IMG/VR virus record: IMGVR_UViG_3300028844_004984
Strand: one strand, 5' to 3'
Length of the DNA stretch: 64,000 nt
DNA from: a virus
A program made the translations under genes and the position numbers. Shown in pieces: positions 13,840 to 16,327 of the stretch. Numbering within the stretch: position 1 is the stretch's first letter; each line of letters begins with the position of its first letter. The notes beneath the pieces are model-generated. The model was not told where the DNA came from. It was given only the letters and a program-made list of their open reading frames with translations, and ran no database searches.

Positions 13840-13925
13840 GGCCGGATGGTGGAAGTGGTAGACACGACAGACTTAAAATCTGTTTCGCCGAACGGTGAGT
13901 GTGGGTTCGAGTCCCACTCCGGCTA
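13840..13925 (+). tRNA. tRNA-Leu(TAA)
   Basis: Cloverleaf with long variable arm; anticodon arm ACAGA-CT TAA AA-TCTGT; GTTCGAGTC. Confidence 0.92.
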
Positions 13926-13951
13926 CTATAAATAATACAACAATATCTATT

Positions 13952-14086
13952 ATGCTTTATGTACAATATACGATGATTGGTTTGGTAAGTATCGCATTAG
14001 GTTATATGCTTTATGAAATGGTTAAGACTTTCTACTATGAAATAAGAGAATCAATCCGAACTAATCGAAACAACCGAAGGTGGTGA
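13952..14086 (+). CDS. Small membrane protein between tRNAs
   Basis: Single TM segment and a basic tail. Confidence 0.5.
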   Translation: MLYVQYTMIGLVSIALGYMLYEMVKTFYYEIRESIRTNRNNRRW

Positions 14087-14096
14087 TATAATAAAT

Positions 14097-14170
14097 GCAC
14101 CCGTAGCTCAGCTGGATAGAGCAACGCACTTCTAATGCGTAGGTCATAGGTTCGAATCCTATCGGGTGTA
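14097..14170 (+). tRNA. tRNA-Arg(TCT)
   Basis: Cloverleaf; ACGCA-CT TCT AA-TGCGT. Confidence 0.95.
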
Positions 14171-14183
14171 CAAAATTTCTTAT

Positions 14184-14258
14184 GGTGTTTATAGCTCAAT
14201 CGGTTAGAGCGCTGGCTTGTGGAGCCTGAGGTTGTGAGTTCGATTCTCACTAAACACC
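14184..14258 (+). tRNA. tRNA-His(GTG)
   Basis: G-1/C73; anticodon loop TT GTG GA. Confidence 0.9.
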
Positions 14259-14332
14259 CATTGAGTTCTTTGACTTATCGGATTTTTTTTGCGAGTTCTG
14301 CACCTCTACAGATTAAAAGGTGTTTTCAACAT

Positions 14333-14406
14333 GGGAATGTAGCTCAGTTGGTTAGAGCAGGACTCTTATACAGTCAAGGTCATGGGTTCAAGTCCCGTCA
14401 TTCCTA
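14333..14406 (+). tRNA. tRNA-Ile(TAT)
   Basis: Cloverleaf; GACT-CT TAT AC-AGTC; A73. Confidence 0.85.
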
Positions 14407-14411
14407 CAACC

Positions 14412-14485
14412 GACCTCTTAGCTCAGCTGGTTAGAGCATCTCACTTTTAATGAGAGGGTCCTGGGTTCGAGTCCCAGAGGGGTTA
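14412..14485 (+). tRNA. tRNA-Lys(TTT)
   Basis: TCTCA-CT TTT AA-TGAGA. Confidence 0.95.
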
Positions 14486-14488
14486 CTT

Positions 14489-14568
14489 GCCGATGTGGTG
14501 GAATTGGTAGACACGCTAGTTTTAGGCACTAGTTCTTCGGAGTGAGAGTTCGAGTCTCTCCATCGGTA
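14489..14568 (+). tRNA. tRNA-Leu(TAG)
   Basis: CTAGT-TT TAG GC-ACTAG; variable arm. Confidence 0.93.
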
Positions 14569-14573
14569 CATAT

Positions 14574-14648
14574 GCATCCTTAGCTCAGTTGGTTCAGAGC
14601 ATCTCGTTTACACCGAGAAGGTCGTTGGTTCGAACCCAACAGGATGTA
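14574..14648 (+). tRNA. tRNA-Val(TAC)
   Basis: TCTCG-TT TAC AC-CGAGA. Confidence 0.95.
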
Positions 14649-14707
14649 CTTCACTAAATAAATTTCAATATTTATATAATAGTAATAATACTAATAAACA
14701 ATAATTT

Positions 14708-14986
14708 ATGAATTACAAAATCGCAAGAAGATTGTACCAAGCTTTGGAAGCAAAGTACACAGCAGAGATAATGGATGCGAGAGCACGATTATCAGTTTAC
14801 TTCGAATCCTCTGTAGGAATCGGAGAACACCCACAACTTACTGAAGAGATTGACAACTTAGTTGACCAACTCGCAAACGCAACGGATAAATTGGAAACAC
14901 TTTCTAACAACTTCTCAAAGGAGTATGGTAGTGATATTCCAACTACAGTCGTTGACAATGAAAAGAAGGAGTTGATTAACGGGTAG
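14708..14986 (+). CDS. Conserved T4-like phage hypothetical protein (VGIGEHP motif)
   Basis: Motif; preceded by ATATTTAT. Confidence 0.75.
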   Translation: MNYKIARRLYQALEAKYTAEIMDARARLSVYFESSVGIGEHPQLTEEIDNLVDQLANATDKLETLSNNFSKEYGSDIPTTVVDNEKKELING

Positions 14987-15003
14987 GGTGAGTACGACTC
15001 ATC

Positions 15004-15088
15004 GGAAGATTGGCAGAGAGGTCGATTGCACTGGTCTTGAAAACCAGCGTACAGCAATGTACCGTAGGTTCGAATCCTACATCTTCCG
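15004..15088 (+). tRNA. tRNA-Ser(TGA)
   Basis: CTGGT-CT TGA AA-ACCAG; long variable arm; G73. Confidence 0.93.
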
Positions 15089-15090
15089 CA

Positions 15091-15415
15091 AAGGTTATCG
15101 TTCTTTACATAAAAAAGGAAAAGCTATGGAAATAACATCATTTATTTTAGGTGTATGTGCAGCTATCACATTGTTGGTGGTTGTGGGTACGTTTGTGAAT
15201 TACCTGAGTGTTAAATCACTTAAAGAGCAGATTGATAATATCGATAAAACAATAGTCGATATTGAACGTGAACTCTACACAATAGTGGATGAGTTGAACA
15301 AAGAACTTCATAATGAAGTTGATGAAGTGTACAGAACAGTTGATTCCAGATTTGATAAGTTTGAGAATCGAATAAATCCGAATGGATAATAATTAACCCT
15401 AAGAACGATAACCTT
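15091..15415. repeat. Perfect 15-bp inverted repeat enclosing a gene
   Basis: AAGGTTATCGTTCTT (15091-15105) and AAGAACGATAACCTT (15401-15415). Confidence 0.9.
15126..15389 (+). CDS. Membrane-anchored coiled-coil protein (87 aa)
   Basis: N-terminal TM plus heptads; start placed after tRNA-Ser. Confidence 0.7.
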   Translation: MEITSFILGVCAAITLLVVVGTFVNYLSVKSLKEQIDNIDKTIVDIERELYTIVDELNKELHNEVDEVYRTVDSRFDKFENRINPNG

Positions 15416-15437
15416 AACTTAAAAAATCCAAAATATA

Positions 15438-15469
15438 TTTGGAAGTTTGAAAAAACTTTTGTATATTTG
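15438..15469 (+). promoter_or_regulatory. Bacteroidota-type promoter driving the ncRNA
   Basis: TTTG...TATATTTG with no ORF for about 460 nt downstream. Confidence 0.75.
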
Positions 15470-15477
15470 TAGAAGTT

Positions 15478-15896
15478 CTTTGAAATAATAGAGGCACCTG
15501 AAGTATTGGCCATATGAATGGTGAGTATATGACCGAATAATCCCTAACGGAAGAAGGGGATAAGGTAAACCTGACACTGAACACGTTTCAGTTCAATTGC
15601 TCAAGGGAGTGATTGAGTTCCGACAGGAAAGAAGGTGGTAAGTTAGGAAAGAATCAAACAACCGATTCTTCCAAGAGCATTGTAAGTACCCGAAAGGAAA
15701 TCTTACTTTATGACCGAATAATCCCATAATGGGGGATAAGGTACGACTAAAGCTGTTGTGGCGCTACAACGAGATTAACCATCTTGAGTAGAACTCGAAA
15801 TAATAGTAGAGTTAGTTGGTATGCGGTAGATAAAACCATAAACTAACTTTTCAGAATTGGTATATTCTGATATACGTTCCTCTATTTTTTTCAAAG
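15478..15896 (+). ncRNA. Large (~420 nt) highly structured non-coding RNA, family not recognised
   Basis: 5' and 3' ends pair; more than 10 hairpins; duplicated GACCGAATAATCCC...GGGATAAGGT motif; own promoter. Confidence 0.75.
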
Positions 15897-15939
15897 TAAT
15901 ATTTGGATAATTAAAAAATGTTTTGTATATTTACAATCG

Positions 15940-16194
15940 ATGAAATGGGATACGGTACATATTAGTGATAAGATACACTTTCTGAAGGATGTGATGGATA
16001 ACTCCACACAGGACACAGAGCACGATATGCACATTGTAAACGCATTAATTACAGGTTCTCACAACACCTTTAGTGGTGATATGGGATTTGAAATACAAAT
16101 ACATCATATGAATTATATGAGAGAGTTATGGGATAATCACATCGTTACTCAAAAAGATAGTTCAGTGATTAACAAACTGCGAGAGAAGAGTTAA
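15940..16194 (+). CDS. Hypothetical protein
   Basis: Follows a TTTG/TATATTTA promoter (15903-15933); 3' end overlaps a tRNA-like gene. Confidence 0.6.
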   Translation: MKWDTVHISDKIHFLKDVMDNSTQDTEHDMHIVNALITGSHNTFSGDMGFEIQIHHMNYMRELWDNHIVTQKDSSVINKLREKS

Positions 16195-16250
16195 GAGAAA
16201 CTCGCTACACATCCAGTGTAGAGAAGTTGGGGCAGTTCCAACCTTTCGCT
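16179..16250 (+). tRNA. Non-canonical tRNA-Gly(TCC)-like RNA, copy 1
   Basis: Complete cloverleaf stems, U73; T-loop GGCAGTT, no D-loop GG, A33. Confidence 0.75.
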
Positions 16251-16255
16251 CAACT

Positions 16256-16327
16256 GCGGGAAAAGAGTTAAGAGAAACTCGCCGTACTTCCAGTACGGAG
16301 ATGGTGGGGCAGTTCCACCTTCCCGCT
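16256..16327 (+). tRNA. Non-canonical tRNA-Gly(TCC)-like RNA, copy 2
   Basis: GCGGGAA/TTCCCGC acceptor; CCGTA-CT TCC AG-TACGG; T-loop GGCAGTT. Confidence 0.8.

What the first reader, a model, noticed from the sequence alone, without database searches (positions are those of the whole stretch)
15438..15896. ~420-nt ornate ncRNA with its own promoter and a duplicated internal module
Seen in sequence: a Bacteroidota promoter is followed by an ORF-free region whose ends pair over about 17 bp (CTTTGAAATAATAGAGG at 15478-15494 with CCTCTATTTTTTTCAAAG at 15879-15896). Nested helices include CACCT/AGGTG, CCTG/CAGG, ACTGAA/TTCAGT, TCAATTGCTC/GAGTGATTGA, GAATC/GATTC, GTAAG/CTTAC (with an AGUA/GAA loop-E-like motif), GTTGT/ACAAC, AGAGTTAGTT/AACTAACTTT and TCAGAAT/ATTCTGA. 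The module TATGACCGAATAATCCC-[variable loop]-GGGGATAAGGTA occurs twice (about 15528-15567 and 15709-15743) with identical stems and internal loop but different apical loops. Established: large structured RNAs such as GOLLD and ROOL occur beside phage tRNA clusters. Inference: this is a phage scaffold or sponge RNA with two protein- or self-assembly sites, possibly a new class. I do not recognise it as tmRNA, RNase P, SRP or 6S.
Basis: partly seen in the sequence, partly recalled or inferred. Interest (0 to 1): 0.85.

Follow-up and report, generated by a model that had tools for sequence, protein, structure and literature searches.

The report
Two-core manA-family phage RNA gene
The flagged stretch is a real, about 425-base folded RNA gene of a marine Bacteroidota phage. 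It is an enlarged two-core relative of the known "manA" RNA, which a 2026 preprint reports to build RNA-only cages in vitro, so it is not a wholly new class, and its role in infection is still unknown.

Summary
The feature is real. Window 15474-15898 (+) folds into about 24 helices. On 72 close relatives, 93.7% of pair cells are canonical and 66 pairs change on both sides, against 11-15 in slid controls. On 38 more distant relatives the figure is 81 pairs against 25-42.

It is not a new class. The duplicated module is the conserved core of manA RNA (Rfam RF01745). The 3' half matches that model below threshold (29 bits; cut-off 55). The same half of alignable homologues scores 70-73 bits.

The fold reads as one manA-like fold whose long hairpin carries a second module plus three-hairpin subdomain. 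It is not two independent tandem copies. Long-range helices, one pseudoknot (a second is a candidate) and a loop-loop pairing all covary.

About 160 marine viral or metagenomic loci hold the RNA. None was found in GenBank phages or in bacterial genomes.

It behaves as its own gene. It has a promoter here; elsewhere tRNAs abut its ends or terminators follow it. The downstream ORF occurs without it.

Self-assembly is inferred from the family, not shown.

This scan reached the same reading earlier on other genomes (e1-5366135, e1-5366153, e1-5362648, e1-5362657).

The parts
13840..15089 (+). Cluster of 8 tRNA genes upstream (Leu, Arg, His, Ile, Lys, Leu, Val, Ser)
   Evidence: Found by Rfam and ARAGORN. 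The closest relatives have the same array, and in L014 a tRNA-Pro lies 54-61 nt from the RNA.
15438..15469 (+). Promoter-like site of Bacteroidota type: TTTG (15438-41), N20, TATATTTG (15462-69)
   Evidence: Read from the sequence. It is conserved in L089, L092 and L112. The motif TTTTGTATATTT occurs 8 times in the window against 2.5 expected. No transcript data are available.
15474..15898 (+). The whole RNA, about 425 nt: a two-core manA-family RNA
   Evidence: nhmmer gives end-to-end matches to 61 viral and 94 metagenomic loci. The strand follows from G.U 633 against A.C 189.
15478..15494 (+). P0, 5' strand of the terminal closing helix. It pairs with 15879-15896.
   Evidence: The inner 6 pairs are 98% canonical, and 4 of them change on both sides.
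15495..15523 (+). P1a hairpin: CACC 15495-98 pairs with GGUG 15520-23
   Evidence: The pairs are 100% canonical, and the third and fourth pairs covary (for example CACC/GGUG against CACA/UGUG).
15525..15529 (+). P2, 5' strand: GUAUA pairs with UAUAC 15871-75. It corresponds to the manA outer helix GGGAG/CUCCC.
   Evidence: In the distant clade the helix is GGGAU/AUCCC, with GGAAU/AUUCC variants.
15528..15567 (+). Module A, the first manA core hairpin: ACC/GGU, internal loop GAAUA/AA, stem AUCCCU/GGGGAU. Its loop GGAAGAA (15546-52) is a candidate pseudoknot partner of UUCUUCC 15666-72.
   Evidence: For the loop pairing, the mean best complementary run is 6.89 against 5.75 when partners are permuted (permuted maximum 6.37).
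15568..15637 (+). Subdomain A. The closing helix is ACCU/AGGU. It holds three hairpins: 15577-91, 15592-617, and 15618-29 with a GACA loop.
   Evidence: Helices are 96-99% canonical, and most pairs covary.
15640..15645 (+). Long-range helix, 5' strand: AAGUUA pairs with UAACUU 15844-49. It encloses the second core.
   Evidence: columns 200-207 with 424-431; 6 of 8 pairs covary; 99.8% canonical, 5 of 6 covary.
15646..15672 (+). A4 hairpin, read as the apex of manA P8. Its loop ACC (15661-63) is complementary to GGU 15859-61 in the last hairpin.
   Evidence: the loop-loop pair C-G changes to U-A in 16 sequences. The distant clade has ACGAUU/AAUCGU, with 3 covarying pairs.
15677..15680 (+). Linker helix, 5' strand: GCAU pairs with AUGC 15821-24. 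It closes the second core.
   Evidence: CCUUGU/ACAAGG in the distant clade, 4 pairs covary. It is invariant in the close clade.
15682..15706 (+). P1b hairpin: GUAAG/CUUAC with an inner CC/GG and an AGUA...GAAAU internal loop
   Evidence: 100% canonical. The motif AAGTACCCGARAGGAAATC retrieved 105 metagenome loci.
15709..15743 (+). Module B, the second manA core hairpin. Its loop AUGG (15729-32) forms a pseudoknot with CCAU 15836-39.
   Evidence: 98.7% canonical, 4 of 6 pairs covary. Relatives carry CUUAUU/AAUAAG (L073) and AUCCAAU/AUUGGAU (L051), read from the alignment.
15744..15818 (+). Subdomain B. The closing helix is CGACU/AGUUG. It holds hairpins at 15752-62, 15764-91 (loop UAACC) and 15792-813.
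   Evidence: The closing helix is 100% canonical and 3 pairs covary.
15681..15878 (+). Sub-threshold match to Rfam manA (RF01745): 29.2 bits, cut-off 55.2, E 1.4e-5, model positions 1-192
   Evidence: The homologous half of L058, L033, L040 and L060 scores 70-73 bits.
15851..15870 (+). Last hairpin, read as manA P9: UCAGAAU/AUUCUGA with loop UGGUAU
   Evidence: 6 of 7 pairs covary.
15871..15896 (+). 3' strands of P2 (UAUAC 15871-75) and P0 (15879-96), including a run of seven U
   Evidence: In relatives a tRNA starts 2-5 nt after the equivalent U run.
15902..16194 (+). A second copy of the promoter-like motif (TTTG 15902-05, TATATTTA 15926-33), followed by an 84-aa ORF (15940-16194)
   Evidence: Homologues of the ORF in L077-L079 have the same promoter motif but no RNA upstream.

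Best explanation
Shown: window 15474-15898 (+) encodes a stand-alone structured RNA of about 425 nt that belongs to the manA RNA family in an enlarged, two-core form.

Reading of the fold (inference from the covarying pairs): it is one manA-like fold, made of these parts in order:
- hairpin P1a;
- outer helix P2;
- core module A;
- a three-hairpin subdomain;
- a P8-like long helix;
- terminal hairpin P9.

The 3' side of the P8-like helix has been expanded by a second copy of hairpin, core module and three-hairpin subdomain. An extra terminal stem, P0, closes everything.

Shown: the loop of module B pairs with a strand just before the 3' side of the long helix, forming a pseudoknot. The apical loop of the P8-like hairpin is complementary to the loop of P9.

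Inferred: the RNA is made as its own unit. Here that is from a Bacteroidota-type promoter. In relatives it is cut out of tRNA transcripts or ended by terminators. It then acts in trans.

Inferred, and less certain: like single manA RNAs in vitro, it uses the conserved loop-loop complementarity to join copies into a defined homo-oligomeric RNA particle during infection. What the particle does is unknown.
For: Identity:
- The Rfam manA match is at E 1.4e-5.
- The duplicated module equals the manA consensus core.
- 61 viral loci align end to end. Their 3' halves score 62-73 bits against manA.
- The 5' half of L058 also matches manA weakly, at 16 bits.

Structure:
- On A2, 120 pairs are 93.4% canonical. 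81 pairs change on both sides, against 25-42 when slid. The covariation score is 0.448 against 0.07-0.10, and 0 of 500 shuffles reach it.
- On A5, 119 pairs are 93.7% canonical. 66 pairs change on both sides, against 11-15 when slid.
- G.U outnumbers A.C by 633 to 189, which fixes the + strand.

Stand-alone unit:
- Promoter motifs lie before both the RNA and the next ORF.
- In L058 there is a promoter-like motif, the RNA, a terminator-like hairpin, then the same promoter motif before gp32.
- tRNAs end 2-12 nt before the conserved 5' GUUCUUUGA, or start 2-5 nt after the 3' U run. Others have terminator hairpins after the RNA.
- The downstream ORF exists without the RNA in L077-79.

Assembly:
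- The preprint 10.64898/2026.07.01.735769 reports manA pentamers, decamers and a 60-mer held by kissing loops L5-L7' and L8-L9'.
- The Rfam consensus loops at those positions are complementary.
- The equivalent loop pair covaries in both clades.
Against: - The window RNA itself fails the Rfam manA gathering score (29 against 55 bits).
- I have no transcript data for this locus.
- No classical terminator follows the RNA in the window.
- Covariation cannot tell whether the loop-loop pairs form within one molecule or between molecules.
- The cage and pentamer data are in vitro, from a preprint, and for single-core RNAs under 200 nt.
- My matching of its helix numbers to the Rfam consensus is an inference, because the figures were not available.
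- Only the window's closest relatives have the promoter. Many others start right after an Hc1-like gene with no visible promoter. Co-transcription followed by processing is therefore equally possible there.
Confidence: 0.6

Rival explanations
1. It is a cis-regulatory leader, a tandem-aptamer riboswitch as first proposed for manA. It would sense a metabolite with its two modules and control the gene downstream.
For: - manA was filed as a riboswitch candidate in 5' UTRs (PMC2864571).
- The RNA is always on the same strand as the next gene.
- In the distant clade it lies about 185 nt upstream of gp32 in most loci.
- Two conserved modules recall tandem aptamers.
Against: - A promoter motif lies between the RNA and the next ORF, both in the window and in L058.
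- A terminator-like hairpin that does not overlap the RNA follows it in L058, L117, L170, L180 and L127.
- The downstream neighbour varies: an 84-aa ORF, gp32, a methyltransferase or a tRNA.
- The 84-aa ORF occurs with its promoter but without the RNA.
- Single manA RNAs sit 1-6 nt from tRNAs on both sides.
Confidence: 0.08
2. It is a trans-acting RNA that works with proteins rather than by self-assembly. It could be a scaffold, a decoy or a sponge for a host or phage protein, for example a factor tied to tRNA or translation, with the two modules as binding sites.
For: - It has stand-alone gene behaviour.
- It is closely tied to tRNA genes in about half of the close-clade loci.
- In many relatives an Hc1 histone-like gene lies directly upstream.
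- Two near-identical modules would give two equal sites.
Against: - No partner protein is consistently encoded next to it.
- The module loops are used in RNA-RNA pairings that covary.
- The only experimental data for the family show protein-free assembly.
Confidence: 0.25
3. It is not a functional RNA. The signal would come from a DNA-level element such as repeats, an origin or a mobile-element end, or from chance folding of AT-rich spacer DNA.
For: The region is AT-rich. It is bracketed by an inverted repeat, and a neighbouring ORF is also bracketed by a 15-bp inverted repeat.
Against: - There are 66-81 pairs with compensatory changes across about 110 distinct sequences.
- Slid controls are three- to five-fold lower.
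- G.U outnumbers A.C in a strand-specific way.
- Length is conserved at 419-437 nt at about 50% identity.
Confidence: 0.02

Closest known systems
manA RNA motif (Rfam RF01745; Weinberg et al. 2010, PMC2864571; cryo-EM preprint 10.64898/2026.07.01.735769)
   Same: - The core hairpin is the same: an ACY-GAAUAA ... UAA-GGU internal loop.
- It is followed by a three-hairpin subdomain closed by a helix, then a GGUA stretch.
- There is a 5' hairpin before an outer helix.
- There is a terminal hairpin whose loop complements the loop of the preceding long hairpin.
- It occurs in marine phages, and single copies can also sit among tRNAs.
   Different: - It is about 425 nt, not about 190 nt.
- It has two cores. 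The second is nested inside the expanded long hairpin and closed by its own helix.
- There is an extra terminal stem P0.
- The outer helix has its two strands about 345 nt apart.
- The window clade scores only 27-29 bits against the Rfam model, so routine annotation misses it. In the distant clade only the 3' half is annotated.
- The hosts are Bacteroidota phages related to Flavobacterium phage immuto and Microcystis phage Mel-JY01, not T4-like cyanophages.
- It is not in a 5' UTR.
ROOL and GOLLD large non-coding RNAs (Rfam families; my own knowledge: often in prophages or phages near tRNAs, and reported by cryo-EM to form RNA-only multimers)
   Same: It is a large, ornate, phage-borne RNA beside tRNA genes, with no coding potential, and with likely quaternary assembly through loop contacts.
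   Different: There is no sequence or structure match to either family, even at E up to 10. The size, core motifs and host range differ. The resemblance is functional analogy only.
Tandem-aptamer riboswitches such as the glycine riboswitch (my own knowledge)
   Same: Two homologous ligand-type domains lie in one transcript, with inter-domain tertiary contacts.
   Different: Here the second domain is nested inside a helix of the first, not placed side by side. No expression platform overlaps the fold. The unit is followed by its own terminator or a tRNA in relatives.

Membership tests
manA RNA (RF01745) | Covariance-model score at or above the Rfam gathering score (55.2 bits) | tested here: not met
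   The window scores 29.2 bits, E 1.4e-5. L014 scores 27.6 and L073 27.8 bits. Homologues that align end to end with the window RNA do pass, at 62-73 bits.
manA RNA (RF01745) | Conserved core hairpin with the GAAUAA / UAA internal loop flanked by ACY / GGU | tested here: met
   It is present twice, at 15528-67 and 15709-43. Its stems are 99-100% canonical and covary.
manA RNA (RF01745) | A three-hairpin subdomain closed by a helix directly 3' of the core hairpin | tested here: met
   It is present twice, at 15568-637 and 15744-818. The closing helices and hairpins covary.
manA RNA (RF01745) | A 5' hairpin followed by an outer helix that encloses the rest of the fold | tested here: met
   P1a is at 15495-523. 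P2 pairs 15525-29 with 15871-75. In the distant clade P2 is GGGAU/AUCCC, as in the consensus GGGaG/CuCCC.
manA RNA (RF01745) | A long hairpin and a terminal hairpin with mutually complementary loops | tested here: met
   The A4 loop and the last-hairpin loop are complementary and covary in both clades. The consensus loops CUGU and ACAG are read. Equating these with the preprint's L8 and L9 is my inference.
manA RNA (RF01745) | Single-core architecture of about 190 nt | tested here: not met
   The RNA is 419-437 nt with two cores in all of about 125 distinct sequences.
manA RNA (RF01745) | Position in the 5' UTR of a protein-coding gene (cis-regulatory type) | tested here: not met
   A promoter or terminator lies between the RNA and the next gene. 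tRNAs abut the RNA in relatives. The ORF is found without the RNA.
manA RNA (RF01745) | Self-assembly into pentamer-based oligomers | not testable with these tools
   Only the preprint's in vitro data on single-core members are available.
GOLLD / ROOL | A match to the family covariance model | tested here: not met
   Neither appears among the matches at E up to 10 in 15300-16050, nor at gathering score in the whole window.

The most novel reading that the evidence does not exclude
The two-core RNA is a natural 'fused neighbour' version of the manA protomer. The second core docks on the expanded P8 in cis, through the module-B pseudoknot, in the way a neighbouring protomer's L3 docks on L8 in trans in single manA assemblies. 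The free P8-apex and P9 loops would then link copies. Infected Flavobacteriia cells would therefore build an RNA-only shell or lattice of a geometry different from the single-core 60-mer. The RNA would be released from tRNA operons by RNase P and RNase Z, and would serve the phage as a compartment or a sequestering particle.
Probability: 0.2. Interest if true: 0.85.

Novelty: new variant of a known kind. Interest (0 to 1): 0.6.

Why it matters
manA has been an orphan 'riboswitch candidate' since 2010. A 2026 preprint now reports it as the first natural RNA that forms an icosahedral cage in vitro, but gives no biology.

This locus adds several things:
- The family has a large, abundant two-core form in marine Bacteroidota phages. 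Rfam either misses it or annotates only half of it.
- That form behaves as an independent gene. It has its own promoter here, and in relatives it is flanked by terminators or processed from tRNA arrays.
- The loops that hold single-core assemblies together stay complementary in it.

Together these argue against the cis-regulatory label. They also provide about 125 distinct natural sequences and a pair-level structure for designing assembly and mutational tests, and they point to tRNA-processing enzymes as the maturation route.

The limit is that no cultured phage with this RNA was found, so in vivo tests need a new isolate or a heterologous system.

Tried and rejected
- Rfam at gathering score found nothing in the region.
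- blastn of the window RNA and of a distant-clade RNA against 50,697 GenBank phages found no real match, only a 44-nt promoter-region hit.
- The cultured relatives Mel-JY01 and Flavobacterium phage immuto hold no manA anywhere, and have no room for it upstream of ssb.
- The module-pattern scan of 185,579 species genomes gave 45 hits. nhmmer confirmed none, so they are chance matches.
- No whole genome is held for the window.
- I first read the RNA as two independent manA copies in tandem. I rejected this because the outer helix has one strand in each half, and a covarying long-range helix plus a linker helix nest the second core inside the first.
- I rejected a simple hairpin reading of AGAGTTAGTT/AACTAACTTT, and three other first-reader helices, because of L014, L051 and L073.
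- The module-A loop pseudoknot could not be tested in the distant clade, where the sequences vary too little: 5.52 observed against 5.40 permuted.
- I looked by eye for an L5-L7-type loop complementarity in the window clade and found nothing convincing.
- The loops L8 and L9 of the single manA in L012 are not obviously complementary, so the kissing pair is not universal in the family.

Full report
**Observation.** The stretch 15438-15896 was read directly.
- It holds only short ORFs: at most 56 aa, and at most 38 aa on the + strand.
- A Bacteroidota-type promoter match lies just before it: TTTG 15438-41, 20 nt, TATATTTG 15462-69. The same 34-nt motif recurs at 15899-15932, just before the next ORF.
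- The duplicated module is real. A 17-nt exact repeat lies at 15528-44 and 15709-25, and the 3' halves GGGGATAAGGTA also match.
- The ends are complementary (I1).
- The + strand folds with z = -5.27 against shuffles. The - strand gives z = -3.70.
- Eight tRNA genes lie at 13840-15089.

**Identity.** Rfam at gathering score finds nothing in the region.
- With permissive filters, the 3' half (15681-15878) matches manA RNA, RF01745, over the full model. The score is 29.2 bits, E 1.4e-5, and the cut-off is 55.2.
- In that alignment the duplicated module falls on the most conserved part of the manA consensus.
- A pattern for the module found 72 IMG/VR loci. An nhmmer profile showed that 61 of them hold an end-to-end homologue of the whole 425-nt RNA.
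- These give 39 distinct sequences of 419-437 nt. L014 is 87% and L051 is 71.5% identical to the window; the rest are 51-55% identical.
- In the distant sequences the 3' half passes the manA gathering score, at 62-73 bits. The 5' half matches manA only weakly, at 16 bits.
- A second pattern, the P1b hairpin, found 6 viral and 105 metagenomic loci, all from marine samples. 94 of the metagenomic loci hold a full-length RNA.
- With the window and five viral loci added, these give 88 distinct sequences in the window's wider clade, of which 72 are 66-87% identical to the window.
- No match was found in GenBank phages. None was confirmed in one genome for each of 185,579 prokaryote species.

**Structure.** RNAalifold on 38 sequences predicted 80 pairs, 62 of them with compensatory changes. 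These include an unexpected long-range helix. My own column-pair scan added more.

A hand-curated structure with two crossing interactions was then counted on that alignment.
- It has 120 pairs in 25 helices, and 93.4% of cells are canonical.
- 81 pairs change on both sides. Slid controls give 25-42.
- The covariation score is 0.448, against 0.07-0.10 in the controls.
- No shuffle out of 500 reaches the observed values.

The same architecture was written in window coordinates from a four-sequence RNAalifold fold. It was tested on the 72 close relatives.
- It has 119 pairs, and 93.7% of cells are canonical.
- 66 pairs change on both sides. Slid controls give 11-15.
- The covariation score is 0.328, against 0.06-0.09.
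- G.U cells outnumber A.C cells by 633 to 189, so the RNA is read from the + strand.

**Architecture.** From 5' to 3' the window RNA has these parts.
- Terminal stem P0: 15478-94 with 15879-96.
- Hairpin P1a: 15495-523.
- Helix P2: GUAUA 15525-29 with UAUAC 15871-75. This is the counterpart of the manA outer helix.
- Module A, then a helix-closed subdomain of three hairpins (15568-637).
- A long-range helix: 15640-45 with 15844-49.
- Hairpin A4: 15646-72.
- A linker helix: GCAU 15677-80 with AUGC 15821-24.
- Hairpin P1b, module B, and a second three-hairpin subdomain (15744-818).
- A last hairpin: 15851-70.

The loop of module B pairs with the strand just before the 3' side of the long-range helix. 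In the window this is AUGG/CCAU. L073 has CUUAUU/AAUAAG and L051 has AUCCAAU/AUUGGAU (read; counted).

The A4 loop is complementary to the loop of the last hairpin. In the window clade this is ACC/GGU, switching to ACU/AGU in 16 sequences. In the distant clade it is ACGAUU/AAUCGU, with three covarying pairs.

A third long-range pairing is supported only in the window clade. The module A loop is complementary to the 3' strand and 3' flank of A4. The mean best run is 6.89, against a permuted mean of 5.75 and a permuted maximum of 6.37. It partly overlaps the lower stem of A4.

P2 has one strand in each half, and the long-range and linker helices enclose the second core. I therefore read the RNA as one manA-like fold whose long hairpin (P8 in my numbering of the Rfam consensus) is expanded by a second core. 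It is not two independent tandem copies. The Rfam alignment of the 3' half agrees: it deletes the outer helix and most of the long hairpin.

Seven hold. Four are contradicted.

**Context.** The window is part of a large myophage, with all genes on the + strand.
- It encodes a baseplate wedge protein, thymidylate synthase and CobS/CobT-like genes.
- Its proteins, and the gp32 next to the distant-clade RNAs, are closest to Microcystis phage Mel-JY01 and Flavobacterium phage immuto. Neither phage has a manA RNA.
- The promoter type points to a Bacteroidota host. So do first-stage notes on T9SS signals, which I did not check.

**Independence from the downstream gene.**
- In the window, and in L014, L089, L092 and L112, the RNA has the promoter motif directly upstream.
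- The next ORF (84 aa, 15940-16194) has its own copy of the motif. It would be nearly leaderless.
- Its homologues in L077-L079 keep that promoter but have no RNA upstream.
- In the distant clade (L058) the order is: promoter-like motif, RNA, a terminator-like hairpin with a T run, the same promoter-like motif, then gp32.
- In the window's wider clade about half of the loci have a tRNA within 400 nt.
- In at least six loci a tRNA ends 2-12 nt before the conserved 5' GUUCUUUGA. In at least six others a tRNA starts 2-5 nt after the 3' U run. Others carry a classical terminator hairpin right after the RNA.
- Single-core manA RNAs in other viral loci sit 1-6 nt from tRNAs on both sides.
- Many relatives start just after an Hc1 histone-like gene, with only a small hairpin between them.
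- The downstream neighbour varies: an ORF, gp32, a methyltransferase or a tRNA.

All this fits a discrete trans-acting RNA whose ends are set by initiation, termination or tRNA processing. It does not fit a leader that controls one gene.

**What is known.**
- manA was described in 2010 as a riboswitch candidate of marine metagenomes, cyanophages and Photobacterium (PMC2864571). Its supplementary alignment already shows tRNAs beside some copies.
- I found no paper that mentions a tandem or double form.
- A July 2026 preprint (10.64898/2026.07.01.735769) reports cryo-EM structures. Single manA RNAs under 200 nt form pentamers that build decamers or a 60-subunit icosahedral cage.
- These are held by kissing loops L5-L7' and L8-L9', or by L3-L8' and a GNRA contact.
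- Its biology section is silent on function, phage context and tandem forms.
- In the Rfam consensus the loops at the corresponding positions are complementary: GUGGUG with ACCA, and CUGU with ACAG. The numbering match is my inference.
- The two-core RNA keeps the P8-apex / P9 complementarity.

**Mechanism.**
- Shown: a conserved fold, its strand, family membership by architecture, and stand-alone gene behaviour across relatives.
- Inferred: the transcript ends in this window, and maturation by RNase P and RNase Z where tRNAs abut.
- Speculative: homo-oligomer formation through the conserved loop pairs, and any role as a particle.

Covariation cannot separate pairing within one molecule from pairing between molecules.

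**Earlier findings of this scan.** After I had formed my reading (stated), I found that follow-up agents had reached the same 'double-core manA-like phage RNA' conclusion on other genomes. Two of them report expression, which I could not check.

**Verdict.** It is a real, well-supported structured RNA. It is a new, uncatalogued two-core variant of a known family, not a new class. Interest is moderate to high because of the cage report and the clear stand-alone behaviour.

Noticed in passing
L012:1378-1713 (- strand); L003:1530-1851: Single-core manA RNAs (182 nt, 64-65 bits) lie inside phage tRNA arrays. A tRNA ends 6 nt before the RNA and another starts 1 nt after it. This does not fit the 'cis-regulatory' type given in Rfam.
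   Followed up: partly
window 15899-16194; L077:2940-3252; L079:2940-3243: The 84-aa ORF after the RNA starts 7 nt after a TAnnTTTA box, so it would be nearly leaderless. It is conserved at 69-74% identity in three viral contigs. There it keeps the promoter motif but follows a protein gene instead of the RNA.
   Followed up: partly
window 15091-15105 and 15401-15415: A perfect 15-bp inverted repeat (AAGGTTATCGTTCTT / AAGAACGATAACCTT) brackets the ORF between tRNA-Ser and the RNA. L014 has the same ORF but carries a tRNA-Pro just after it, where the right arm lies in the window.
   Followed up: partly
L051:3866-4042; also upstream of the RNA in L128, L153, L116, L105, L147 and others: In many relatives a phage-encoded histone H1-like Hc1 protein (PF07432, E 9e-21) ends 25-45 nt before the RNA. 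Only a small hairpin lies between them, and no promoter motif is visible.
   Followed up: partly
L058:960-1000 and 1524-1560: In the distant clade the motif GCTTGAACGTTTT followed by a TATA-rich stretch occurs both before the RNA and before gp32. It looks like a phage-specific promoter, reminiscent of a T4 middle promoter (MotA box), though this was not tested.
   Followed up: no
window 15884-15890; L116, L186, L188, L105 3' ends: A run of 6-9 U directly follows the 3' strand of the closing helix in nearly all members of the window clade, even where a tRNA starts 2-5 nt later. Whether it acts as a terminator tract, a protein-binding tail or only part of P0 is unexplained.
   Followed up: no
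window 16179-16327: A first-stage note reports two non-canonical tRNA-Gly-like genes here. ARAGORN and Rfam at gathering score call no tRNA at this place.
   Followed up: partly
L073 (contig of 212,342 bp, CheckV 76% complete): One carrier of the window-clade RNA is a jumbo-size phage contig with a single copy of the RNA.
   Followed up: no
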